A DNA stretch of 64,000 nucleotides. It comes from an uncultured virus (IMG/VR IMGVR_UViG_3300014039_000035) (Duplodnaviria; Heunggongvirae; Uroviricota; Caudoviricetes). The notes beneath the pieces were generated by a model, which did no database searches, was not told the origin of the DNA, and saw nothing but the letters and a program-made list of their open reading frames with translations. Made by a program: the position numbers and the translations under genes. The stretch lies in IMG/VR virus record IMGVR_UViG_3300014039_000035; one strand, written 5' to 3'. Shown piece after piece: positions 7,867-64,000 of this stretch (position 1 is the stretch's first letter; every line of letters begins with the position of its first letter).

Positions 7867-8493
7867 CTATTCAGGCAAATCGTCACTCTCCTGCGGCTTG
7901 GCGGCTATCCCGTCAGCCACCGCGTCCTCCACCGTCTGGCTCTCGAAGTCGTAACGCTCCTTTATCGCCGCCATGTCAAGGCCGTTCTTCAACGCCCAGT
8001 CCACGATGACACCGACCTTGTCCTCGGTTATGACCTTTTTCGCGGCAGGAGCCTGTGCGGGTGCGTAGCCGTTCTCGACAAGCCACTGCTGCATCTCCTC
8101 TACCGAGGCCGCCGGATAGCGGCTGATGCGGAGGCCGTAGGTGGTCCCGCCGTTTTGTACATCGCGTGCCTCCTCTTTGGTCAGCCTGACCGGAATGTTG
8201 TGGAGCAAGTCAATCCTACCCTCGCAAGGACGTCCGTCCTCAACGATGTCGTTCCAGTGCGCCTTGGCAATCCGGGTTCGGTTCGTAACATTTCCGACCA
8301 TGCTCTTTTCCGTAAAAGGATTCGGTGCGAACTTGAACAACCACACGTCTTTTTCCTGTCTTCCGTTCACTCGCAGGCTTTCATGAAATTCGATGCTTTC
8401 GATGATTATGCGAGGAATGTCTTGCCCACCGGGCAGCATATCCACGCTCGCATAGTCACTTTTCGTGCCTTTCTTGTAATAAGTCCCTAACAT
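7867..8493 (-). CDS. putative ssDNA-annealing/binding partner of the exonuclease
   Basis: Adjacent to YqaJ; NVTNR motif; acidic tail DDLPE. Confidence 0.5.
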   Translation of the reverse strand: MLGTYYKKGTKSDYASVDMLPGGQDIPRIIIESIEFHESLRVNGRQEKDVWLFKFAPNPFTEKSMVGNVTNRTRIAKAHWNDIVEDGRPCEGRIDLLHNIPVRLTKEEARDVQNGGTTYGLRISRYPAASVEEMQQWLVENGYAPAQAPAAKKVITEDKVGVIVDWALKNGLDMAAIKERYDFESQTVEDAVADGIAAKPQESDDLPE

Positions 8494-8568
8494 TTGTTTT
8501 GTTTTTAGTCTGTTCCGCCGATATGGCTTCACTTCGTATCTTTTCCTCTTACAAATTCTGTGCCCTAA

Positions 8569-9138
8569 TTATCTATCTTCATATCTCCAAAAATACCCGC
8601 CAGCCGTTCTGTTAGGATTTAGGCAAGCTCTTGATATATTACTAATGCCAGTCTCACGGCCAGCTTCAAGAGTGCCATAAAAAGAGCGTATAAAATTACC
8701 ATCCAAACTATATTGAGAAACCTTTTTTGAATTTGGACATAATTTTCCAGTTTTCCCACGGGCAGCATCCGAAGTATGTTTTATAGCAAGCTCAAAATTA
8801 CTATTCTCTTTTGGTGTACACCATCTTAGATTTTCTACTCTATTATTTCTTCTATCCCCGTCAATATGATCAATAAACGGCTTATTATGTGGATTTGGAA
8901 TAAATGCCGTACCCACAAGAGTGTGCACGAGCTTATATTTCTTTCCTGACGAATTGGATAAGGATACGAACTCGTAACCTCGGTTTTGAACAGCAGTTTT
9001 GAGGATTCGTTCTTTAACCGTAATCCTTTTTCCATTTCCCTGCACAATGACTCTCGTCAAGCTTTTTACTCGGCCCAAATTACTTACATCATAAAATCCC
9101 TCGTAACCAACAACCGGTTTCCAAATTTCTGTTTCCAT
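8569..9138 (-). CDS. NUMOD4-HNH-NUMOD1 homing endonuclease
   Basis: EIWKPVVGYEGFYDVSNLGRVKS, VHTLV, DHIDGDRRNNRVENLRWCT; AT-rich relative to flanks. Confidence 0.93.
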   Translation of the reverse strand: METEIWKPVVGYEGFYDVSNLGRVKSLTRVIVQGNGKRITVKERILKTAVQNRGYEFVSLSNSSGKKYKLVHTLVGTAFIPNPHNKPFIDHIDGDRRNNRVENLRWCTPKENSNFELAIKHTSDAARGKTGKLCPNSKKVSQYSLDGNFIRSFYGTLEAGRETGISNISRACLNPNRTAGGYFWRYEDR

Positions 9139-9151
9139 TTTTAGTAAAACA

Positions 9152-9252
9152 ATCCCCAGCGTTCAAATAGCGGTGGAAGCACTATTCTACTAACAGGGGA
9201 TGCTAATTGTCTATTTTGCTATCTTCCACATAGCAATAACTATGCAAAAATA
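9152..9252 (-). promoter_or_regulatory. TAnnTTTG promoter plus kissing-loop leader of the HNH gene
   Basis: TATTTTTG at 9252-9245; hairpin loops GTGGAAG and CTTCCAC are complementary. Confidence 0.7.
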
Positions 9253-9264
9253 ATAGTTATCAGA

Positions 9265-9759
9265 TTATTTTGCAAGCGTTTCAGCTTTTTTTACTGATTT
9301 ACGAAATCGACCATTTATCTCTCTCTCCATCTTCCTGCGCTCCCTCGCGCCCATCTCGACGTACTCCTGCACGCCCCTGACCTCCTCCATGGCCGCCTTC
9401 TCCTCCTCCGGGTCATCCTCGGCCTTCTCCTTCTCCTCCACGCGCTTCTCGTAGTCCACAAGGGCCTTCTGCACCTCGTCCACAAGCCGCTGGTCGGTCG
9501 TCATCGTCATCGTCAGGTAGTACAGCACGTTCGCGAAGCCGAACACGTTGTCCTCCTTGCCCTGCTCGACGCTCGCCCTTAAATAGCCGAACGGATGCTC
9601 GCACGCCGTCACCCTCATCCGCCAGTTGCCGCTCACGGTCCGCAGCTCCAGCGTGTAGCGGCGGAAAACATACCTGAACCCGCCCTTCTCGCCGCTTGCC
9701 TCGACCGGGTTCATCACATTGAGGCACCAGAACCTCACAATCTTGTCCCAAATTTTCAT
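9265..9759 (-). CDS. hypothetical phage protein
   Basis: 164 aa; TATCTTTG promoter element about 30 nt upstream. Confidence 0.7.
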   Translation of the reverse strand: MKIWDKIVRFWCLNVMNPVEASGEKGGFRYVFRRYTLELRTVSGNWRMRVTACEHPFGYLRASVEQGKEDNVFGFANVLYYLTMTMTTDQRLVDEVQKALVDYEKRVEEKEKAEDDPEEEKAAMEEVRGVQEYVEMGARERRKMEREINGRFRKSVKKAETLAK

Positions 9760-21697: not shown

Positions 21698-21967
21698 ATG
21701 GCAAGTTACAAGAAAGAGTTCCTGGAATGGAAAAAACAGTACAAGGAAGACGAGTTCTACGACAGTCTTCCCGGTGTTGACTTGAAGATTGGCGACAAGG
21801 TGATGTTCACCAATTCGTCAGGGATAACGTTCGGGCCGTATGAGATTCTGGCCTTTCAGACACCCGATAAATATGGGCGGTGCGTCTTCATAGACCACGA
21901 CAGCTATTGGTTTCCGGCAACTTTAGAGTCATTGAGGCCATGTGGAAAAGAAAGAGCCGGAAGATAG
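21698..21967 (+). CDS. hypothetical SH3-like protein
   Basis: LKIGDKVMFTN motif. Confidence 0.55.
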   Translation: MASYKKEFLEWKKQYKEDEFYDSLPGVDLKIGDKVMFTNSSGITFGPYEILAFQTPDKYGRCVFIDHDSYWFPATLESLRPCGKERAGR

Positions 21968-22722
21968 ACATCAAGCCGATAGGCGATTCAAGGCCGTATG
22001 TCTTGTGGCGAAGGGTTTCCACGCAGGAGCAGGAGGTCTCTGGCCTTGGCTTGGAGGCGCAGTTGACCATAGCGAAGATGTTCATGGCAAGGGAGCCTGT
22101 GGCGGTGTTCACGGATGTCCATTCAGGAACGAAGTTGAAGGAGTGTGACCAGCTGTGGGAGGCGATACGCTACTGCAAGGCAAATGATTACGTCCTTTGC
22201 ATAGCGAAGAGTGACCGTCTGAGATCAGTGTCTGAGGCCTTGGACATTATAGACGCGATGGGCGAGCGCAATGTTGTGATATGCGATTTGCCTACTTGCG
22301 ACAGGTTTGTGCTGACCATCATGTTCGCGGTTTGGGAACGTCAGGCGCAGATGATACAGATAAACACACGTCTTGCGTTGGCGGAGCGTCAGAGACAGAT
22401 TGAGGTCAACGGCGGATTTTTCTCGAAGTCCGGTCGCTGGGTGAAGAAACTTGGCAGTCCAAAGGGTTATATGCCACGTCAGGCGATAGTTGCGGCAAAT
22501 GAGGCGTCAGCGGCCAAGGCGGTCGAATGGCGCAAGGAGTCACCTCTTTTCGCTTGGGTCGAGTTGCAGGTTTTCAAGCACCGGGCGAGGGTTGACATTC
22601 TGGCGGATGCGCAGGAACTTTACCGCAAGCATCCGGAGAAGTACGGTACACGCAACGGATGTCCGCTGAGTAAGGGTATATTAAGCAAGTGGATAAAGAT
22701 AATACAATTAAGCAATGACTAA
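21940..22722 (+). CDS. serine recombinase (resolvase family)
   Basis: RVSTQEQ..SGLGLEAQ, D..SG, K.DRL, ER..I..NT..AL. Confidence 0.9.
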   Translation: MWKRKSRKIDIKPIGDSRPYVLWRRVSTQEQEVSGLGLEAQLTIAKMFMAREPVAVFTDVHSGTKLKECDQLWEAIRYCKANDYVLCIAKSDRLRSVSEALDIIDAMGERNVVICDLPTCDRFVLTIMFAVWERQAQMIQINTRLALAERQRQIEVNGGFFSKSGRWVKKLGSPKGYMPRQAIVAANEASAAKAVEWRKESPLFAWVELQVFKHRARVDILADAQELYRKHPEKYGTRNGCPLSKGILSKWIKIIQLSND

Positions 22723-23595: not shown

Positions 23596-24096
23596 ATGAA
23601 AGAAGCAAAAGAATTGAATCTCTGCGAGATTCTCAAAGATTGCCCGAAAGGGACTAAATTATATACGCCGCTTTATGGTGTATGTAGTTTATATTCGGTT
23701 GATGACAAATTCATAACAATCGATTATGTCGGAGAGGTAAATATAATCTGTAATGAGACATTTTTCGCTAATGGAACAATCTCCACTTTAGGTGATGAAT
23801 GCCTATTGTTTCCCTCCAAAGATAACCGTGACTGGTCTACTTGGAAGAATCCAAAGCCAAAGGTTGAACGTTTTAACCCGAAGACGTTTGAGCCGTTCGA
23901 CAAGGTGCTGGTAAGAGAGGATGATGAAGATTGTTGGATACCAACCTTTATTAGTTATTTTGATAGGTGGCTAAAAAAGATAATTACGGTATCTGACCAA
24001 GCGTATAGTCGAGTCATCCCTTACAACGACGACACCAAGCATCTTATTGGTACGTGTGATGAGGCTCCGGAGTATTACAGATATTGGGAGAATTAA
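23596..24096 (+). CDS. conserved Bacteroidales phage protein
   Basis: LNLCEILKDCPKGTKLY, LFPSK..RDW, FEPFDKVLVR, IPYN..TKHLIGT. Confidence 0.75.
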   Translation: MKEAKELNLCEILKDCPKGTKLYTPLYGVCSLYSVDDKFITIDYVGEVNIICNETFFANGTISTLGDECLLFPSKDNRDWSTWKNPKPKVERFNPKTFEPFDKVLVREDDEDCWIPTFISYFDRWLKKIITVSDQAYSRVIPYNDDTKHLIGTCDEAPEYYRYWEN

Positions 24097-24098
24097 TC

Positions 24099-24362
24099 AT
24101 GATTTGGATTTGTATAATAATAGGCTTGATTTCTTTTGCTGGTCTTGTATATTCAATAATAGAAACAGATGGTTTTGCAATACTTGCTATTTTTTCTGTA
24201 TTTGGGTTAATATGCTCATTTGTCGGAATATTAGATTTATCTTCAGAGAAAAATAAATCTTATGAATATTCAGCAACTGAATACACTCTCGAATACAAGG
24301 TAACTACTATTGGAGAGCAGAGTGATACTACTTATGTATTGACAAAAATTAAAGAAGATTAG
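24099..24362 (+). CDS. small membrane protein
   Basis: Two hydrophobic helices. Confidence 0.6.
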   Translation: MIWICIIIGLISFAGLVYSIIETDGFAILAIFSVFGLICSFVGILDLSSEKNKSYEYSATEYTLEYKVTTIGEQSDTTYVLTKIKED

Positions 24363-24520
24363 GATATGAATTATACAGTGAAATTTTTTAGTCCATTAAG
24401 AAATGAAATAATGTTTCGTAAAATAGAGGCTAACAATGCTGAAATAGCACAAAAAACGATACAAATGTACTATAAAGTGCCTGAAAAAGATATTTTATCA
24501 ATCATCGAGGAGGATTAATT

Positions 24521-24703
24521 ATGGCATGGATAGCAAGAGATGGAAATCTCAATTTATGTATTTTCGACGATATGCCGGAAAGGTGTGTTTCAAGGGCGGT
24601 ATGGATTCCCTTTTATGGAGAAATCACAAATTTTATAGAACTTCCCTCCGATGCTGATGAAAAGTTAATTGGAAGACATATCACTTGGGGATATCAGCAG
24701 TAG
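24521..24703 (+). pseudogene. small phage gene truncated by the TnpB element (original end EDEPVEI* at 26543-26566)
   Basis: Removing 24689-26542 restores ...GRHITW-EDEPVEI* in frame. Confidence 0.8.
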
Positions 24704-24783
24704 ATAAAAAAATACTCAAAAATATCTAAAATTATTTAAACATATTATTAACATTTTTCAAAATTGATACTATTTATATTTAG

Positions 24784-24883
24784 AAAACAAAAGTCAGACG
24801 TTGTTTTGGAATATTAGAGAAATTTAAGTTACAATACCTTCATGGCATCGTCTGACTTTAGTGCCAAGAAGGTTTTGTAACTT
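24784..24883 (+). promoter_or_regulatory. kissing-loop leader of tnpB
   Basis: Loops AAGTCAGACG (24791-24800) and CGTCTGACTT (24849-24858) are 10/10 complementary. Confidence 0.7.
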
Positions 24884-24894
24884 TTTTTATTTTT

Positions 24895-26535
24895 ATGATT
24901 ATTGACAGCAAATATACAAAAGTGTTCGTCTCCGATGATATAACCCGTTTGAAATATAACGAGTTACACGATGTTGCTGTCAATATCAGAGACCATAAGA
25001 ACAAGGTATCTGAATTCGTTTCCCATAACCTCCTAAAATATTTGGATTATTCCAATCTGACGTTTATGAAGGAAATGAGAACTGAATTCAAAAACCAAGT
25101 GGGTTCTTCGTTTGATGCTCAACTCTATACACAAGTACTGACTTGTTATCAAAACAAATTTGATAACATAAGAAAAAATCTTACTTTTGAAAAAGTCACT
25201 TATTCCCATTGTGAACTCTACAAAAGGAGCATCAAGATAAACAAGAAAGGTGATTTCAAAAAAGTAGTTAACAAACACGAAACCACAAGGTTGTCCATCT
25301 GTTTAAGTTACCTTGCACGATACGGGAATGATAATACCGTTGAATATATTAATTCTCAGATGCCTACTTGTGATGATAATAAGAAAGGCTATTACCAATC
25401 CATTTTGGATTGCTGCTCCAAGTTTGGATTCGAGCGATTGATGGGATTGGCGATGCAGAAACGTCAGCGAGCAATAGACAGATACAAGGATAACCCCATC
25501 GAATTCAAATCCCTTACATTCAGTGGCAGAAGCCGTAAAAAGAAAATCCTCGATTGGAACAAGAACTACAATTCTGAGATTAACGCATTCGTATCATTGT
25601 CAGGATTTGATAGGAAATCCATGGATATCCCCGTTAAATTTGCAAAGGATTACCACGGCTCGATGGGTGATTATTTCAAGGCGAATCCTGATTACGAATA
25701 CACCATTGTATTCAATGAACGAAAGAAATCGGTATCCATCAATCTTTGTAAGGACGGTGAAAGGTTTATCCCGGAGGCGGGTAATAACCTTATCGGGATT
25801 GACGTAAATTGCAAGCATAACTTATTCTCATTATCAGATAACTCTACGTATGATTATGACCGTCAGTTGGTTAATGATTATTGTAGGTTAGCGTTGGATA
25901 TAGATAAACGCAAGAAAAAGGATAAGGAGTACCAACCGGGAAAGAGAACCCAATGGAAACTGGATACCCTCAAAAAGAAAATGGACAAATCCGAGCAGAA
26001 CCTCATTGCCTTGATGTGCAAACAATTGGCATCAGAGGGATATAACCACATAGTGATGGAGGATTTGGATAATGGATTCGGAAAATGCTTTGTTAAGGAT
26101 AAGGATAATGAGGATATCAACTATAACCGCAAGGTCAAATTTCTTGGATTGTCAAGCCTCAAGAATGAGGTGGAGCATATTGCGAGGAACTACGGAATAG
26201 CGTTGTCCACGGTGCAAGCGAGTTACACGTCCAAGATGTGCCCAATATGCGGCTGTATCGAGGACGAGAACCGTCCCGACCAAGAGACATTCTGTTGCGT
26301 TGAATGTGGTCATTCAAGCAATGCTGATTTCAATGCGTCGGTGAATATAAGGAACAGAGTCAGCGAAGCCGTGCTTCGAGATAGGCTCTTAAAACAAAAG
26401 GATAATGGTGCCTACGAACCTAAAAAGATGAAAAGAGAAAAGGTTAAGGAGGTATTGTTATCGTTTCGGAAACACCTGCAAAAGGCAGGGAGTGAATGTA
26501 TTCAAACGGAGTTAAACACTTTTGAATATGTTTAA
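24895..26535 (+). CDS. tnpB: TnpB-family RNA-guided endonuclease (546 aa)
   Basis: RuvC GIDVN / VMEDL / NADFNA, YTSKMCPICG...CVECG zinc ribbon. Confidence 0.93.
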   Translation: MIIDSKYTKVFVSDDITRLKYNELHDVAVNIRDHKNKVSEFVSHNLLKYLDYSNLTFMKEMRTEFKNQVGSSFDAQLYTQVLTCYQNKFDNIRKNLTFEKVTYSHCELYKRSIKINKKGDFKKVVNKHETTRLSICLSYLARYGNDNTVEYINSQMPTCDDNKKGYYQSILDCCSKFGFERLMGLAMQKRQRAIDRYKDNPIEFKSLTFSGRSRKKKILDWNKNYNSEINAFVSLSGFDRKSMDIPVKFAKDYHGSMGDYFKANPDYEYTIVFNERKKSVSINLCKDGERFIPEAGNNLIGIDVNCKHNLFSLSDNSTYDYDRQLVNDYCRLALDIDKRKKKDKEYQPGKRTQWKLDTLKKKMDKSEQNLIALMCKQLASEGYNHIVMEDLDNGFGKCFVKDKDNEDINYNRKVKFLGLSSLKNEVEHIARNYGIALSTVQASYTSKMCPICGCIEDENRPDQETFCCVECGHSSNADFNASVNIRNRVSEAVLRDRLLKQKDNGAYEPKKMKREKVKEVLLSFRKHLQKAGSECIQTELNTFEYV

Positions 26536-26669
26536 GTTTTCGGAGGATGAACCAGTAGAAATTTAGAGTTATGAAAACAAAAGAACAAATACTTAAATGG
26601 CTTGACAAGCAGCCTTGGAAGAATGAATTTTACAGACTTGTTGGAAACCGCTAAACCGTTGTTGTAATT

Positions 26670-27091
26670 ATGACTATCGAAGAAAAAGCAAAAGAGTACG
26701 TAGAGACTTGTATTGATGATGACCCAGTAAATCCATTTGCTGCAATAGCCAGAGTTGAAGGAAGAGATGCGTTTAAGCGAGGCGCACAATGGATGCTTGA
26801 AAAAGCAAAGTTGTGGCTAATTAAAAATCTTAAATACACCGACGATATATCTAATTTTCAAAAAGCTATGGATGAATAGTTATGACGGAAGACGAATTGA
26901 TATTTCATGATTTACTTATGGCTACACATACAGTCAAAGCAGTAGAAAAAGCACGTAAAGAGGTGATTGAAAAGGCTGCTAATTGGTTTACAAATTATCT
27001 TGCAGAAATAGGTTATCCAGATGATTGGATAAGAGACTCAAAAGTACAACAAAGCGGAATGGAAAGATTTCGTAAAGCAATGGAGGAATAA
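26670..27091 (+). other. two small related ORFs (26670-26879, 26882-27091)
   Basis: Both contain EKA..W and end F.KAM.E. Confidence 0.6.
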
Positions 27092-34856: not shown

Positions 34857-35156
34857 TTATATCCTTAAATCGTTTCTACTGCGCCAACTGTCTGGAACAA
34901 TACGATGTATTTTGTGGAACGGATAAAGCACCTTGCGGATAGGTTTATCCAGAAGTTTGCGGAAGATGTTGACACGGATAGTTGTCTCAGGCTTGTTGTA
35001 GAAGTCCGCGATGTCGCTGATTGAGCCGTAAACTTTCATACTGGACTCGATAGCCTGTGTCGCACTGTTGATTTCCTCCATGGTGCAAGAATCGCTTTGC
35101 AACTTCTTGATGTAGAACTCAAGAATCTCGATTAGATAGTCTTTAGGATTAAACAT
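34857..35156 (-). CDS. hypothetical protein, possible HTH
   Basis: ISDIADFYNKPETTIR. Confidence 0.5.
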   Translation of the reverse strand: MFNPKDYLIEILEFYIKKLQSDSCTMEEINSATQAIESSMKVYGSISDIADFYNKPETTIRVNIFRKLLDKPIRKVLYPFHKIHRIVPDSWRSRNDLRI

Positions 35157-35637
35157 AATGATGTGGTTTTAGAAAAACATTGTATGCAGCCGCAAGCAGC
35201 AGAATGGTCATGCAAACGGTGATTCCGTTCAGGATATATACGGCAATATCTGTAAGTTCTATCAGATAAGCGTCGATGATTGTGAAGCAGAATGGCACAA
35301 GCGGTATGGCGCTGGCAAGGCGATGCCATCTGCAAAGACGCAGTATCCTTGAGAATATCAGCATTATGATGATAATTGGCGGTGGCGTGAAAAGGATGAT
35401 ACTGAACAGCCATGCCGTGTCCACCGGGCAGAATGTCTGGACAATGATACCAACAATATAAAAAAGGGACACCACAAACGGTGCTATCTGTACCGCAAGT
35501 GTAATATCCCTTAATGTAAGTATCAGTCGTTTTATACGTTCATCGCTTTCGTCTTGGTTGTCCATGGCTATTAACTTTAGGGCTAACGGTGATTTGAATG
35601 CCTTTGCCCATGAGTCTTTCTCCGTTGGGGTTGTCAT
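35149..35637 (-). CDS. four-TM membrane protein
   Basis: Hydrophobic segments. Confidence 0.65.
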   Translation of the reverse strand: MTTPTEKDSWAKAFKSPLALKLIAMDNQDESDERIKRLILTLRDITLAVQIAPFVVSLFYIVGIIVQTFCPVDTAWLFSIILFTPPPIIIIMLIFSRILRLCRWHRLASAIPLVPFCFTIIDAYLIELTDIAVYILNGITVCMTILLLAAAYNVFLKPHHYV

Positions 35638-61830: not shown

Positions 61831-61933
61831 TAACTTTGTTCCGTGTCGAGGTCCAGACGACAAAAGAAGAAAGTTATACGTCCCCCGTGCGAGTACGTCT
61901 GTGCTGGACCCACCGACCGAAAACACGAGGGAC
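61831..61933 (+). promoter_or_regulatory. TAACTTTG promoter plus kissing-loop leader of the endonuclease gene
   Basis: Loops GGTCCAG (61850-61856) and CTGGACC (61904-61910) are complementary. Confidence 0.7.
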
Positions 61934-61946
61934 TTTTTGTGTTATC

Positions 61947-63119
61947 ATGGGTATACGAAAAACTCAAGAGCAATTCATCAAGGAAGCCTATGCACTCCAC
62001 GGAGACCATTATGACTTCTCAAAAGCCGTCTATACGAACAGCAAAGACAAAATGTCAGTCTACTGCAACATTCACCACAAATTCTTCTCGACGACGCCAA
62101 ATCAGATATTGCGTGGTTCGGGTTGCCCGGAGTGCGGACTTGCGTCGAGAATAGCAAAAAGAACCGACACGACAGAATCTTTCATTGCGAAAGCAAGAAA
62201 GGTTCACGGTGACAAATATGATTACTCTAAAGTTGTCTATGAAAAATCAGACATACCGGTGACAATCACATGCAAAAAGTGCGGAAAAGACTTCAAGCAG
62301 TCACCTAACACTCATCTGATGGGCCACGGATGCGAGGCTTGTTCTTACAAGGAAAGGGGAATCCGAAGAGCAAAGGGGATTGATATTTTTACGGCCGAGG
62401 CAAGAGCTGTATGGGGCGAGGCTTATGACTATTCATCGGTTGTTTACAAAAACAGCAAAACCAGAGTAGATATAATATGTCCAAAACACGGCGTTTTCTC
62501 TACTACACCATATCAACATTTGAAAGAAGGCGTGGGGTGTCCGCAGTGCAAAAGAGAATCCCGGTTGCTATATGGTATCGCTGTGAACGATGTGCCAAAC
62601 TGCAATCCTAAATGCTTACAAACCTGGGTTGGGATGTTGCATAGATGTTATTATGAAAAAGAACTGGAGCGCCATCCGACATACCGTGGATGCTCCGTGT
62701 GTGAAGAATGGCTTAGACTGTCTGGATTCGTGCCGTTCTGGGAGGCAAATTATCGCCCAAAATATGAGTTGGAGAAAGACATCCTTGTGAAAGGCAATAA
62801 AGTGTACAGTCCGGACACTTGTTGCTTTGTGCCACGACGGATTAATCTCCTACTTACAAACAGAAAGCGATTCCGTGGAAATTTGCCCATCGGGGTGTCA
62901 CTCTCTGAAAGCGGACTTAGATACAAGGCTACCTATGACAGAGACGCGAAAGCAACACTTGTTGGGTATTTCGACACGGTAGAAGAAGCATTCCTCGCAT
63001 ACAAAAAAGCAAAAGAAGAATATATCAAGAAGGTGGCGCAAAAATACTACGATTCCGGTAAAATTGGCCAAAAGGTTCACGAAGCCCTTCTTCGTTATCA
63101 AATCGAAATCACCGACTAA
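61947..63119 (+). CDS. putative homing endonuclease: three HGDKYDYS/zinc-ribbon repeats plus HNH-like and AP2-like C-terminus
   Basis: 3x YD(Y/F)S..Y...C..(H)G...GC..C; W.GMLHRCY, LEKDIL..GNKVYSP.TCCFVP, GYFDTVEEA. Confidence 0.8.
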   Translation: MGIRKTQEQFIKEAYALHGDHYDFSKAVYTNSKDKMSVYCNIHHKFFSTTPNQILRGSGCPECGLASRIAKRTDTTESFIAKARKVHGDKYDYSKVVYEKSDIPVTITCKKCGKDFKQSPNTHLMGHGCEACSYKERGIRRAKGIDIFTAEARAVWGEAYDYSSVVYKNSKTRVDIICPKHGVFSTTPYQHLKEGVGCPQCKRESRLLYGIAVNDVPNCNPKCLQTWVGMLHRCYYEKELERHPTYRGCSVCEEWLRLSGFVPFWEANYRPKYELEKDILVKGNKVYSPDTCCFVPRRINLLLTNRKRFRGNLPIGVSLSESGLRYKATYDRDAKATLVGYFDTVEEAFLAYKKAKEEYIKKVAQKYYDSGKIGQKVHEALLRYQIEITD

Positions 63120-63157
63120 TTTATGAATACCGCAGAAATATTTGCTATTTTTGCGGT

Positions 63158-64000
63158 ATGTTTAGACTTCTAAAAGAACATAAACCCTTTCCCACACAGT
63201 ATGACCATATTGTGCGCAAAAATCCCACAAAAAACAGCAAGGGATATGACAAAATGGTCGGACCGGAAGGGGAGTTTTATCTTCGGGACAAAATAGACTT
63301 TGCCCCACAAAAAGGTCTTCAAGAAAACGCTTGCCGTGACGATTCTGATGTAATATTCCTTGCCGGTGCCATTCAGATGGGCAAAACATATTTGCAGATG
63401 CTCAAAGCGCTATACGGTATAGACAAACCGGGGTATTCCGGCAGGTTCATTTCAGTAAGACTGCAAGACTCGAAAAAAGGTAGCTCGCTTTATCGTGACG
63501 CCGTGGAGATATGGGGAAACTTTGCGGATTGTCAATACACATCAAGCGATTATCCGGCTTTCACTTGGCCGCAGACCAATTCAAGTATTCTGATGACGCA
63601 CTCGAATTTTAATGTGGACAATCCATCGGAATACCTTGATTTTAAGGAGTTTGCCAAGAAGAATAGTGCCAGTTTTATCGCAGTGGACGAATTTTCAGAC
63701 ATGAGCTTCAAAATGTGGACATATTGGTTCGGGCGAAATCGCGATGCCTCTGGTATGAAACCTTGTATGATAGCGAGCTTCAATCCCGAATATCAACATT
63801 TCTCTACACAGATGCTGCTTGACGGCGGCTATATCGGGAGCGACTACTTCGTTATCCCCGAAATGGTCGGCAAGCAACGCTTCTTCTACATAGACGGTGA
63901 CGAACCAGAAAACATCATCTGGGGCGACACAAGAGCGGAAGTGGCTTCAAGAGCCAATATCGTGATAACCGAAAAGGAAGCAGCGGCGGGTATCACACCG
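63158..64000 (+). CDS. terminase large subunit, 5' part (runs off the window)
   Basis: Manual translation: PQKGLQE, Walker A IFLAGAIQMGKT, Walker B FIAVDE, NRD, SFNP. Confidence 0.85.
   Translation, partial: MFRLLKEHKPFPTQYDHIVRKNPTKNSKGYDKMVGPEGEFYLRDKIDFAPQKGLQENACRDDSDVIFLAGAIQMGKTYLQMLKALYGIDKPGYSGRFISVRLQDSKKGSSLYRDAVEIWGNFADCQYTSSDYPAFTWPQTNSSILMTHSNFNVDNPSEYLDFKEFAKKNSASFIAVDEFSDMSFKMWTYWFGRNRDASGMKPCMIASFNPEYQHFSTQMLLDGGYIGSDYFVIPEMVGKQRFFYIDGDEPENIIWGDTRAEVASRANIVITEKEAAAGITP

What the first reader, a model, noticed from the sequence alone, without database searches (positions are those of the whole stretch)
9152..9252. Kissing-loop leader RNA, copy 1, upstream of the NUMOD4-HNH gene
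Seen on the minus strand: a promoter, then hairpin TTGCTAT-[GTGGAAG]-ATAGCAA, a spacer, a long irregular hairpin (ATCCCC...GGGGAT) with apical AATAGTG-[CTTCCAC]-CGCTATT, a U-rich stretch and the ATG. The loops are 7/7 complementary. The same architecture, with unrelated sequence, precedes tnpB (24784) and the endonuclease at 61947. Inference: a shared cis-regulatory RNA (attenuator or antisense switch, loosely reminiscent of P4 CI / P1 c4 control) that restrains toxic mobile nucleases.
Basis: partly seen in the sequence, partly recalled or inferred. Interest (0 to 1): 0.8.

Follow-up and report, generated by a model that had tools for sequence, protein, structure and literature searches.

The report
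Kissing-loop leader RNA of phage nucleases
Between a promoter and the selfish HNH nuclease gene of this gut phage lies a folded RNA leader of about 100 bases, in which the tips of two hairpins pair with each other on top of a terminator-like stem; it belongs to an uncatalogued design that probably limits how much nuclease is made.

Summary
On the minus strand, 9252-9139 carries a Bacteroidota-type -7 box, hairpin 1 (loop GUGGAAG), a long hairpin 2 with apical loop CUUCCAC (7/7 complementary), a U-rich tail and the ATG of a NUMOD4-HNH gene. The same design precedes the TnpB-like gene (11-nt loop pairing) and the CapR/DUF723-type endonuclease gene (7 nt).

Copy 1 has no sequence variants: all 4 other copies found are identical. 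Relatives supply the test. A leader family upstream of phage TnpB genes keeps the 8-bp loop-loop helix through 6 sequence versions (100% of cells paired, 5 of 8 pairs changed on both sides, 0 of 500 shuffles as good). A model built from that family finds window copy 2 (E 4e-5). Copy 1 is linked only through leader L119, by sequence similarity (2 of 2000 shuffles as good). Three HNH relatives and one relative of gene 3 carry the design with other letters.

No Rfam family matches, and two full-text searches found no description. This scan has flagged the same class before on other phage DNA.

Best reading: a portable promoter-plus-attenuator leader that throttles nuclease expression. Function is inferred, not shown; no RNA data exist.

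The parts
9245..9275 (-). Promoter-like site of the cassette: TTGC (9275-9272), 19-nt spacer, TATTTTTG -7 box (9252-9245). Expected transcript start is a few bases before hairpin 1.
   Evidence: Read. The consensus TANNTTTGY with a -33 site is from a passage of PMC12632263. The same type of box precedes copy 3, L039 and L240. Not tested experimentally.
9224..9249 (-). Competing hairpin UUUUGCAUAGU / GCUAUGUGGAA. It can form only in RNA started upstream of the cassette promoter, and it buries the hairpin 1 loop.
   Evidence: MFE of the longer RNA. Alone it is -8.9 kcal/mol against -6.0 for hairpin 1. Seen in copy 1 only.
9216..9236 (-). Hairpin 1: UUGCUAU [GUGGAAG] AUAGCAA; the loop is 9229-9223.
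9152..9201 (-). Hairpin 2: outer stem AUCCCC/GGGGAU, internal loops, apical stem AAUAGUG/CGCUAUU (one U-G pair), loop CUUCCAC (9179-9173) complementary 7/7 to the hairpin 1 loop.
   Evidence: Hairpin 2 alone is -16.9 kcal/mol and the loop-loop duplex is -8.9 kcal/mol.
9139..9151 (-). U-rich tail UGUUUUACUAAAA directly after hairpin 2, ending at the start codon.
   Evidence: A U run follows hairpin 2 in every leader examined.
8569..9138 (-). NUMOD4-HNH_3-NUMOD1 homing endonuclease gene (189 aa).
   Evidence: Pfam E 9e-16, 1e-11 and 3.5e-4.
8544..9330 (-). Mobile cassette (promoter, leader, HNH gene) that is present or absent in related phages.
   Evidence: Homology to relatives L050 and L051 breaks at 9320 and resumes at 8123. 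In L050 the two flanking genes abut. Metagenome contigs join 8133 to 9331 and 8543 to 9331; the cassette unitig has lower depth than the flanks in run X7.
24784..24894 (+). Leader copy 2: hairpin 1 at 24784-24807 (pairing segment AAAGUCAGACG, 24790-24800), hairpin 2 at 24828-24881 (loop pairing segment CGUCUGACUUU, 24849-24859), then U7AU5.
   Evidence: Matched by covariance model R1, built without it: 40.4 bits, E 4.1e-5 over 434 kb.
24895..26535 (+). TnpB-like gene (546 aa).
   Evidence: Pfam Cas12f1-like TNB domain, E 1.3e-15. Relatives at 55-97% identity.
61831..61946 (+). Leader copy 3: -7 box TAACTTTG (61831-61838), hairpin 1 at 61844-61862 (loop GGUCCAG, 61850-61856), hairpin 2 at 61880-61933 with apical hairpin 61897-61917 (loop CUGGACC, 61904-61910), U5 at 61934-61938.
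   Evidence: Relative L240/L241 has the same two loops with all three stems replaced.
61947..63119 (+). Endonuclease-type gene (390 aa) with CapR, DUF4379 (treble-clef zinc finger) and DUF723 modules and a weak AP2 match.
   Evidence: Pfam.

Best explanation
The finding is the 5' leader of a portable expression cassette: own promoter, structured leader, nuclease gene.

Transcription from the -7 box at 9252-9245 would put hairpin 1 at the very 5' end of the RNA. Its 7-nt loop then pairs loop-to-loop with the tip of the long hairpin 2. The base of hairpin 2 is followed at once by a U run, which is the anatomy of an intrinsic terminator.

I read the whole as a leaky transcription attenuator. The kissing contact clamps or speeds the folding of the irregular terminator hairpin, most transcripts end as a compact RNA of about 90 nt, and a minority read through into the nuclease gene. 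Expression stays low and is set by the cassette, not by where it landed.

What is shown and what is inferred:
- Shown: the structure, its recurrence in front of three unrelated nuclease genes, covariation of the loop-loop helix and the stems in relatives, and travel of the leader with the mobile cassette.
- Inferred: promoter use, termination, the direction of the kissing loop's effect, and any benefit to the element.
For: Structure and recurrence:
- The anatomy is at the stated coordinates.
- The same design precedes the three mobile-nuclease-type genes recognised among the 70 window ORFs scanned with Pfam.

Covariation in relatives:
- In the TnpB-leader family (8 sequences, 7 distinct) the 8-bp loop-loop helix is 100% paired. 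5 of 8 pairs changed on both sides and none on one side only. Whole-structure covariation score is 0.385 against 0.183 in shuffles (0 of 500 as high). Slid controls pair in 41-59% of cells.
- With window copy 2 and L119 added, 20 of 25 pairs changed on both sides. The loop-loop helix was not part of the model that made this alignment.
- Model R1, built without it, finds window copy 2 at E 4.1e-5 and L119 at 20.7 bits.

Links to copy 1 and copy 3:
- Copy 1 resembles the L119 leader: same loops, plus CAAA[AG]TAGACA and CCCTGTT. Global alignment score is 33 against 13.1 +/- 4.4, with 2 of 2000 shuffles as high; with the loops removed, 22 of 2000.
- HNH relatives L039/L057 (CCACCAC/GUGGUGG), L216 (UCCCCCGA/UCGGGGGA) and L226 (AUUGCGG/CCGCAAU) have the same design with other letters. 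That is 4 of 54 distinct upstream regions with 7 nt or more of loop-loop complement, against 2 of 540 shuffles; one of the four, L217, is doubtful.
- The relative of gene 3, L240, keeps both loops and replaces all stems.

Strand and terminator features:
- G-U pairs occur in the stems, and 13 of 15 leaders fold better on the sense strand. This points to a sense-strand transcript.
- A U run follows hairpin 2 in all leaders. In L148 and L150 about 20 further bases separate it from the ATG, so it belongs to the hairpin, not to the start codon.

Mobility and context:
- The leader lies inside the mobile cassette.
- Copy 3 has no co-directional gene upstream. The leader therefore acts on the cassette's own transcripts, and termination there cannot be complete.
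Against: - No RNA data: no transcript start, end or level is known for any copy.
- Copy 1 has no sequence variants; its leader is identical in 4 of 4 other copies.
- Models R1 and R2 do not recognise copy 1. The best hit in the right place is 5.4 bits, E 0.34 in 136 nt.
- Folding z-scores for copies 1 and 3 are modest: -1.6 to -2.5 and -1.15.
- The simple terminator scan calls none of the hairpins, because loops exceed 8 nt and stems are irregular. The U run of copy 1 is short (UGUUUU).
- A kissing contact at the tip of a terminator does not obviously change termination, and it could equally favour read-through.
- The phage genes downstream of the HNH cassette lie on the same strand, and I see no -7 box in the 36-nt gap. 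A strong terminator there would be costly to the phage.
- Most HNH relatives examined lack the design.
Confidence: 0.5

Rival explanations
1. The kissing loop is an ON mark, not a brake. Only transcripts started at the cassette promoter carry a free hairpin 1. Its contact with the tip of hairpin 2 delays or distorts closure of the terminator, or opens the start region, so the nuclease is made only from the cassette's own promoter. This follows the logic of the guanidine-IV riboswitch without a ligand, and of T4 I-TevI/mobE, where promoter position decides which RNA fold forms.
For: - In copy 1 a competing hairpin that includes the -7 box region buries the hairpin 1 loop in RNA coming from upstream.
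- Copy 3 can be expressed only through hairpin 2.
- In guanidine-IV a kissing loop is proposed to favour read-through (passage of PMC11611296).
- T4 endonuclease genes use promoter-dependent hairpins (passages of PMC2988022).
Against: - The kissing hairpin is nested inside the terminator-like stem, not an alternative to it, so no competition is visible in the secondary structure.
- I did not see the competing upstream hairpin in the other leaders.
- Termination of operon transcripts at hairpin 2 would cut off the downstream phage genes.
Confidence: 0.17
2. The terminated leader is itself the product: a stable small RNA whose two complementary loops let it pair in trans with nascent leaders of the same element (loop 1 to loop 2 and the reverse). 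It would report copy number or time of infection, with a private address for each element.
For: - The loops vary much more than the rest of the leader: 6 versions in 7 distinct sequences whose other columns are mostly invariant.
- Leaders that share a genome carry different addresses. The window has three unrelated pairs. Contig G003 has GUGGAAGC and GUGGACAG. One contig holds L153 and L156 with GUGGAGAG and GCGAGGAG.
- Covarying specificity is known from P1/P7 c4 and P4 CI (recalled, not read here).
Against: - Nearly all loop changes are transitions between a purine-rich and a pyrimidine-rich loop. These can drift through G-U intermediates without any selection for diversity.
- Pairing in cis should outcompete pairing in trans.
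- No RNA data exist, and there is no third copy of any loop sequence near the genes.
Confidence: 0.15
3. The fold protects or positions the mRNA and does not control transcription. A 5'-terminal hairpin tied to a 3' hairpin shields the leader from RNases, or presents the U-rich tract as a ribosome landing site in a host that uses no Shine-Dalgarno pairing.
For: - Hairpin 1 starts 5-13 nt after the -7 box in copy 1, copy 3, L039 and L240, so it would be 5'-terminal.
- The tract before the ATG is A/U-rich with no Shine-Dalgarno sequence.
Against: - In L148 and L150 the U run stays with the hairpin although the ATG is about 20 nt further on.
- Protection alone does not need a loop-loop contact of 7-11 bp kept by covariation.
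Confidence: 0.1
4. The element acts as DNA: hairpins of a single-stranded transposon end (IS200/IS605-type left end), or inverted half-sites for a DNA-binding protein.
For: - Several members precede tnpB genes.
- In DNA terms the loops are inverted repeats 43-48 bp apart.
Against: - The same design precedes HNH and CapR/DUF723-type genes that are not IS elements.
- Strand-specific G-U pairs and the one-sided U run.
- No matching second end or third copy.
- Stems covary as hairpins, which a double-stranded operator would not need.
Confidence: 0.04
5. Copy 1 is a chance look-alike: a 5' hairpin and a terminator-like hairpin whose loops happen to match.
For: - Copy 1 has no variants and no model match.
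- Loose loop-loop pairs are common in this window, 32 against 15 in shuffles.
Against: - Pairs with both stems of 7 bp or more are expected 0.15 times per shuffled window.
- It lies exactly between a promoter-like box and a nuclease ATG, as in the supported members.
- It shares loops and flanking motifs with L119.
Confidence: 0.04

Closest known systems
Guanidine-IV riboswitch (mepA motif)
   Same: A 5' leader with two hairpins whose loops form a kissing contact, coupled to an intrinsic terminator (passage of PMC11611296).
   Different: - There the loops are conserved and bind a ligand, and the second hairpin competes with the terminator.
- Here the loops are the most variable part, the kissing hairpin is the tip of the terminator-like stem itself, and the genes are nucleases.
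- No Rfam match.
Regulatory hairpins and terminators of T-even phage homing endonuclease genes (I-TevI/II/III, segB, mobE, segF)
   Same: - Free-standing or intron endonuclease genes carry their own RNA structures that keep expression low.
- Promoter position decides which fold forms.
- mobE and segF carry intrinsic terminators, with about 30% termination measured for mobE (passages of PMC2988022).
   Different: - Those hairpins sequester a Shine-Dalgarno site or lie inside the coding region.
- None has a loop-loop contact.
- Here the start codon is outside the fold and the host type uses no Shine-Dalgarno pairing.
P1/P7 c4 and P4 CI immunity RNAs (recalled, not read here)
   Same: An RNA hairpin loop pairs with a complementary site in the same leader transcript, and related elements differ by compensated changes that set specificity.
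   Different: - Those RNAs are processed out and act on a ribosome binding site (c4) or cause termination at distant sites (CI).
- Here the partner is a hairpin tip about 50 nt away, and no processing is known.
- The Rfam scan of the whole window returned no family.
IS200 left end (recalled, not read here)
   Same: A transposase gene of the IS200/IS605 group is preceded by a terminator-like hairpin and further RNA structure that hold expression down.
   Different: - In IS200 the hairpin is also the transposase binding site and blocks transcription coming from outside.
- It has no loop-loop contact.
- Here a promoter lies upstream of the hairpins, and the design also serves non-IS genes.
ColE1 RNA I / RNA II kissing complexes and the IncI-alpha/IncB repZ pseudoknot (recalled, not read here)
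   Same: - Fully paired 7-nt loop-loop helices (ColE1).
- A hairpin loop pairing at long range within a leader to set expression of a dosage-sensitive gene (IncI-alpha/IncB).
   Different: Those systems rest on an antisense RNA from the opposite strand. None is evident here, and both partners lie on one transcript.

Membership tests
Guanidine-IV riboswitch (mepA motif) | Match to the curated Rfam model | tested here: not met
   0 matches at gathering score in the whole window. Only two unrelated weak hits at E up to 10 in 8900-9500.
Guanidine-IV riboswitch (mepA motif) | Conserved loop nucleotides that form the ligand site | tested here: not met
   Loops are the most variable columns: 6 versions in 7 distinct family sequences and three unrelated pairs in the window. 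That conserved loops define the class is recalled.
Guanidine-IV riboswitch (mepA motif) | Kissing contact between two hairpin loops in a 5' leader | tested here: met
   7/7, 11/11 and 7/7 complementarity in the window; covariation in relatives.
Guanidine-IV riboswitch (mepA motif) | The kissing hairpin competes with the terminator stem | tested here: not met
   The kissing hairpin is nested within the terminator-like stem.
T4-type endonuclease regulatory hairpin | [quoted passage not shown] | tested here: not met
   The ATG and the 13 nt before it lie outside hairpin 2 in copy 1, and there is no Shine-Dalgarno sequence.
T4-type endonuclease regulatory hairpin | A promoter placed inside a hairpin, so that only longer transcripts form it | tested here: inconclusive
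   In copy 1 the 5' arm of a competing hairpin (9249-9239) overlaps the -7 box, so it would be absent from cassette-promoter transcripts. Seen in copy 1 only; no transcript data.
Intrinsic terminator / leader attenuator | Stable hairpin immediately followed by a U run | tested here: met
   Hairpin 2 is -16.9 kcal/mol, then UGUUUU. Copy 2 has U7AU5 and copy 3 has U5. Relatives have U5-U8. The simple consensus scan does not call them.
Intrinsic terminator / leader attenuator | Transcripts end at the U run, and the fraction changes with the upstream structure | not testable with these tools
   No RNA run holds the stretch.
P1 c4 / P4 CI co-transcribed antisense RNA | Compensated differences between relatives in the RNA loop and its target | tested here: met
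P1 c4 / P4 CI co-transcribed antisense RNA | The target overlaps the ribosome binding site of the controlled gene, or there are several targets in the operon | tested here: not met
   The partner loop lies 35 nt or more before the ATG, and no further copy of any loop sequence was found near the genes. The defining feature is recalled.
IS200/IS605 transposon end hairpins | Similar subterminal hairpins at both ends, with a Y1 transposase | tested here: inconclusive
   No repeat of the loop sequences elsewhere in the loci. The design also precedes non-IS genes. I did not map right ends or search for tnpA.
The TnpB-leader RNA family defined here (models R1, R2) | Significant covariance-model match | tested here: not met
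   For copy 1: no hit at E up to 10 in the whole window, and 5.4 bits locally. For copy 2: met, at 40.4 bits and E 4.1e-5 with a model built without it.

The most novel reading that the evidence does not exclude
The leader is a self-addressed riboregulator. Each mobile nuclease cassette makes a short terminated RNA whose two complementary loops form a private address. Through loop-loop pairing in trans with nascent leaders of the same cassette on other genome copies, it measures the cassette's own dosage and switches nuclease synthesis. Co-resident cassettes keep different addresses to avoid cross-talk. This would be a sense-sense counterpart of antisense copy-number control, carried by selfish genes inside phages.
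Probability: 0.15. Interest if true: 0.9.

Novelty: new variant of a known kind. Interest (0 to 1): 0.75.

Why it matters
Homing endonucleases and TnpB nucleases are selfish genes that must be expressed without harming their carrier. How they manage this outside T4-like phages is largely unknown.

This is a compact, portable control module found in front of three unrelated nuclease families, in gut and rumen phages of a phylum that uses non-standard promoters and no Shine-Dalgarno pairing. Its loop-loop helix takes many sequences, which makes it a natural set of orthogonal RNA parts and a direct handle for compensatory-mutation experiments.

If the contact tunes an intrinsic terminator, it is a ligand-free way to set termination strength. 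If it acts in trans, it is a new form of dosage sensing. It is also a candidate new RNA family for Rfam.

Tried and rejected
Searches for variants of copy 1:
- Close relatives of the HNH gene in viral (47 loci), metagenome (62 loci) and genome (2 loci) collections gave only identical leaders (L002, L053, L054, L055). All other relatives are at 54% identity or less.
- A loop-independent DNA pattern from copy 1 and L119 found only those two.
- Relatives of the L039 HNH gene: the nearest is 42% identical.
- blastn of the cassette against GenBank phages hit only the HNH core. The TnpB-family leader had no match there.

RNA data and read laying:
- No RNA holder is listed for the stretch.
- Laid contigs cover the cassette, but the differences inside the leader were not among the rows shown.

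Models and family scans:
- Models R1 and R2 do not find copy 1 or copy 3.
- R2 found nothing in 151 genomes of the order of the nearest held genome. No positive control genome was included, so this shows little.
- Rfam gave nothing.

Detectors and simple scans:
- A strict simple-hairpin detector on HNH upstream regions gave 5 of 55 against 1.3 expected. Several hits were parts of one larger hairpin and L039 was missed, so I do not lean on it.
- Of the four MFE-based hits, L217 is A/T-rich and doubtful.
- The sigma-70 and simple terminator scans were uninformative. A TAGACA-18-TAGAAT match inside the leader is not kept in L119.

Ideas rejected:
- Leader peptide: copy 1 has a 6-codon ORF starting in hairpin 1, but length, frame and even the ATG are not kept among relatives (read).
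- A third copy of the loop sequences, as in P4 seqA/B/C: none found.
- Extended duplex between hairpin 1 and the tip of hairpin 2: the stems are not complementary, so only the loops can pair (read).
- L120 and L024 show a hairpin loop complementary to another leader segment (9 nt each) but in a different arrangement; not counted as members.

Literature: the full-text searches 'kissing loop' + 'homing endonuclease' + 'phage' (3 papers) and 'TnpB' + 'kissing' (4 papers) gave nothing relevant by title and abstract.
Full report
**What is there.**
- The window is a tailed phage. Pfam finds a capsid protein E, a tape measure protein, an M15 peptidase, methylases, a dUTPase, a D5-like primase-helicase and a YqaJ nuclease.
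- In one search I scanned 60 of the 76 non-overlapping ORFs of 90 aa or more, and 10 more; 6 were not scanned.
- The nearest capsid relatives in GenBank are Bacteroides and Phocaeicola phages at 27% identity.
- On the minus strand, the 126 nt between the stop of ORF 9759-9265 and the ATG at 9138 hold, in order: TTGC (9275-9272, still inside the upstream ORF); a 19-nt spacer; TATTTTTG (9252-9245); hairpin 1, UUGCUAU[GUGGAAG]AUAGCAA (9236-9216); an A-rich spacer; hairpin 2 (9201-9152), with outer stem AUCCCC/GGGGAU, internal loops and apical AAUAGUG[CUUCCAC]CGCUAUU; then UGUUUUACUAAAA and the ATG.
- The box fits the Bacteroidota -7 consensus TANNTTTGY with a -33 site (passage of PMC12632263).
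- The gene is a NUMOD4-HNH_3-NUMOD1 homing endonuclease.

**Is it more than chance?**
- RNAfold returns both hairpins for 9130-9240 (z -1.58).
- With 25 more upstream bases a competing hairpin, UUUUGCAUAGU/GCUAUGUGGAA, replaces hairpin 1 (z -2.50). It is -8.9 against -6.0 kcal/mol.
- A detector of hairpin pairs with complementary loops finds 32 loose pairs on both strands of the window, against 15.2 in 20 block-wise dinucleotide shuffles.
- With both stems of 7 bp or more it finds 3 (copy 1, counted on both strands) against 0.15. With runs of 10 nt or more it finds 2 (copy 2) against 0.05.
- Copy 1 alone is suggestive only. Its position and its relatives carry the argument.

**The other two copies.**
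- Copy 2 (24784-24894, plus strand) has AAAACAA[AAGUCAGACG]UUGUUUU and a 20-bp hairpin with loop UCGUCUGACUUUAG. 11 nt are complementary, and U7AU5 and the ATG of a TnpB-like gene follow (z -3.89).
- Copy 3 (61831-61946, plus strand) has a perfect TAACTTTG box, UGUCG[AGGUCCAGA]CGACA, and GUCUGUG[CUGGACC]CACCGAC inside GUCCCCCGUG/CACGAGGGAC. U5 and the ATG of a CapR/DUF4379/DUF723-type gene follow.
- RNAfold chose another tip for copy 3, but the fold with this apical hairpin has the same energy, -17.3.
- Among the ORFs scanned, these are the only three homing-endonuclease or TnpB-type genes I recognised.

**The cassette is mobile.**
- Relatives L050 (98.8% identity) and L051 (89.5%) lose homology at window 9320; L051 regains it at 8123.
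- In L050 the two flanking genes abut.
- The last codons of the upstream gene and the first 136 of the downstream gene are kept as protein but recoded in low-GC DNA. This is what co-conversion from a diverged donor would leave.
- In pig-gut, gut and wastewater metagenomes, the cassette (8552-9357) is a separate, nearly identical unitig. Its depth is far below the flanks in run X7.
- Contigs join 8133 to 9331 (X2), and 8543 to 9331 with 283 other letters between (X7).
- The leader therefore travels with the HNH gene.

**No variation in copy 1.**
- The leader is identical in L002, L053, L054 and L055.
- All other HNH relatives found are 54% identical or less. Covariation had to come from relatives of the design.

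**A leader family with covarying loops.**
- Upstream of a tnpB relative (59% identity) in phage contig G003, leader L119 reads UGAUAG[AGGUGGAAGC]CUAUCA, CAAAGUAGACA, then GAGGUU...CCCUGUU GUUGC[CAGCUUCCACAUUUU]GCAAC...AACCUC, U8 and the ATG. This is the same loop pair as copy 1.
- A second tnpB in G003 and its relatives gave 8 leaders, 7 of them distinct.
- They precede two different genes: a canonical 418-aa TnpB, and a gene whose first residues resemble the window's 546-aa protein. The second identification rests on reading the first codons only.
- These leaders are about 90% conserved except in the two loops. The loops read GUGGACAG/CUGUCCAC, GUGGAGAG/CUCUCCAC (twice), GUAGGAAG/CUUCCUAC, GUGAGGAG/CUCCUCAC, GCGAGGAG/CUCCUCGC and GCAGAGAG/CUCUCUGC.
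- Counted on alignment A2, the 8-bp loop-loop helix is paired in 100% of cells. 5 pairs changed on both sides and none on one side only. Hairpin 1 and the inner stem of hairpin 2 also show compensatory and G-U changes.
- The whole-structure covariation score is 0.385 against 0.183 (0 of 500 shuffles as high). Slid controls pair in 41-59% of cells.
- Model R1, built from these 8 with the nested helices only, finds window copy 2 at 40.4 bits (E 4.1e-5 in 434 kb) and L119 at 20.7 bits (E 4e-4 in 261 nt).
- On the model-made alignment A4 (9 sequences), copy 2 falls into register with GUCAGACG/CGUCUGAC, and 20 of 25 pairs change on both sides. L119 is one column out of register there, which accounts for the unpaired cells.
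- Caveats: the family members are related and few, and the nested helices in A4 are fitted to the model. The loop-loop helix was not in the model.

**Link to copy 1.**
- Neither R1 nor R2 recognises copy 1, so membership by model is not met.
- The link is through L119. A global alignment scores 33 against 13.1 +/- 4.4 for shuffles (2 of 2000 as high). With both loop heptamers removed it scores 27 against 14.0 +/- 4.5 (22 of 2000).
- HNH relatives also carry the design with other letters:
  - L039/L057 (41% identity): CGCUUA[UCCACCAC]UAAGCG and a long hairpin whose tip holds GUGGUGG, then U5. L057 has one C-to-U change that makes a G-U pair.
  - L216 (34%): 8 nt complementary.
  - L226 (43%): two 7-nt loops, 7/7 complementary.
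- In 54 distinct upstream regions, 4 have 7 nt or more of loop-loop complement in the MFE, against 2 of 540 shuffles. One of the four, L217, is doubtful.
- Most HNH relatives lack the design.
- For gene 3, relative L240/L241 (44%) has GGUAA[GGUCCAG]UUACC and GGCGCGUG[CUGGACC]CACCGCC within CCCACAAC/GUUGUGGG, then U5. The loops are the same as in copy 3, and all three stems are replaced.

**RNA or DNA, and which strand.**
- G-U pairs in the stems, the one-sided U run, and better folding of the sense strand in 13 of 15 leaders (the family members are not independent) all point to a sense transcript.
- The design serves genes that are not insertion sequences, and no second copy of any loop sequence lies near the genes. 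This weighs against a transposon-end or operator role.

**How it most likely works.**
- Hairpin 2 followed by a U run has the anatomy of an intrinsic terminator. In L148 and L150 the U run stays with the hairpin although the ATG is about 20 nt further on.
- Hairpin 1 would be at the 5' end of a transcript started at the -7 box. It begins 5-13 nt after the box in copy 1, copy 3, L039 and L240.
- The stems of the two hairpins are not complementary, so only a pure kissing complex can form. Its duplex energies are -8.9, -15.1 and -11.3 kcal/mol for the three copies.
- That 7-nt loops can pair fully is known from ColE1 RNA I/II (recalled).
- I read the leader as a leaky attenuator whose terminator hairpin is clamped at its tip by hairpin 1, giving low, context-independent nuclease expression.
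- Copy 3 has no co-directional upstream gene, so the leader acts on the cassette's own transcripts and cannot stop all of them.
- In copy 1 the downstream phage genes depend on transcription through the cassette. I see no -7 box in the 36-nt gap, which again argues for leakiness.
- Rival readings are scored in their own section: an ON mark for own-promoter transcripts (helped by the competing hairpin in copy 1), a trans-acting self-addressed small RNA, and a stability or translation role.
- Loop hypervariability and the different addresses of co-resident copies fit a trans role. However, nearly all loop changes are transitions that can pass through G-U intermediates, so drift is enough to explain them.

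**Comparison with what is known.**
- No Rfam family matches any copy or relative.
- Two full-text searches found no description.
- The closest systems are listed with their differences: guanidine-IV (PMC11611296, passage); T4 endonuclease hairpins and the mobE/segF terminators (PMC2988022, passages); and, recalled rather than read, P1 c4/P4 CI, the IS200 left end, and ColE1 and IncI-alpha.
- This scan has reported the same class before on other phage DNA. Those notes agree with what I found, and one gave me the guanidine-IV comparison. They are not independent evidence.

**Verdict.** This is a real structured leader of an uncatalogued class. Copy 2 is a model-supported member, copy 3 is supported by a relative, and copy 1 is supported by architecture, context and similarity to L119. 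The function is inferred.

Noticed in passing
window 8123-9331: The HNH cassette is flanked by low-GC, recoded versions of the ends of the two neighbouring phage genes. Relatives without the cassette have the high-GC versions. This looks like co-conversion tracts from a diverged donor phage.
   Followed up: partly
window 9224-9249 (minus strand): A hairpin that overlaps the -7 box competes with hairpin 1 and buries the GUGGAAG loop. It could form only in transcripts coming from the upstream operon.
   Followed up: partly
window 21940-22722 and 24000-27000: A resolvase-type serine recombinase ORF lies 2 kb upstream of the TnpB-like gene. The TnpB region is a low-GC island (31-39% GC) with small ORFs. 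I did not examine whether the two form an IS607-like unit.
   Followed up: no
window 63136-63230: A promoter-like TTGCTATTTTTGCGG, much like the one before L240's leader, sits in an inverted repeat (CCGCA...TGCGG). A 9-nt complement, CGCAAAAAT, lies in a small hairpin about 70 nt downstream, before the ORF that starts at about 63254.
   Followed up: no
window 35432-35557: Weak hits of models R1 and R2 on both strands (12.9-21.5 bits, E 0.45-7.1) at a terminator-like hairpin (GGGAUA...UGUCCC, then U6) within or beside ORF 35149-35637. Probably not a member.
   Followed up: no
L146 (contig G003), 233-2175: The canonical tnpB with its leader is inserted in a tRNA gene array: tRNAs at 233-303, 323-393, 1923-2011 and 2104-2175. 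A weak RAGATH-18 hit (E 0.59) lies at the 3' end of tnpB, where a guide RNA scaffold would be expected.
   Followed up: no
L024 1441-1500: An HNH relative (36% identity) shares the first 23 coding bases with the window gene. It has a 9-bp G+C-rich hairpin plus U6 just before the ATG, and the tip of that hairpin is complementary over 9 nt to a segment about 45 nt upstream.
   Followed up: partly
window 24700-24790; L119; L148-L157: Upstream of hairpin 1, the TnpB-type leaders share CTATTTATA-like and TATAAATA-like motifs in place of the TAnnTTTG box. This may be a promoter type of the large phages they come from.
   Followed up: no
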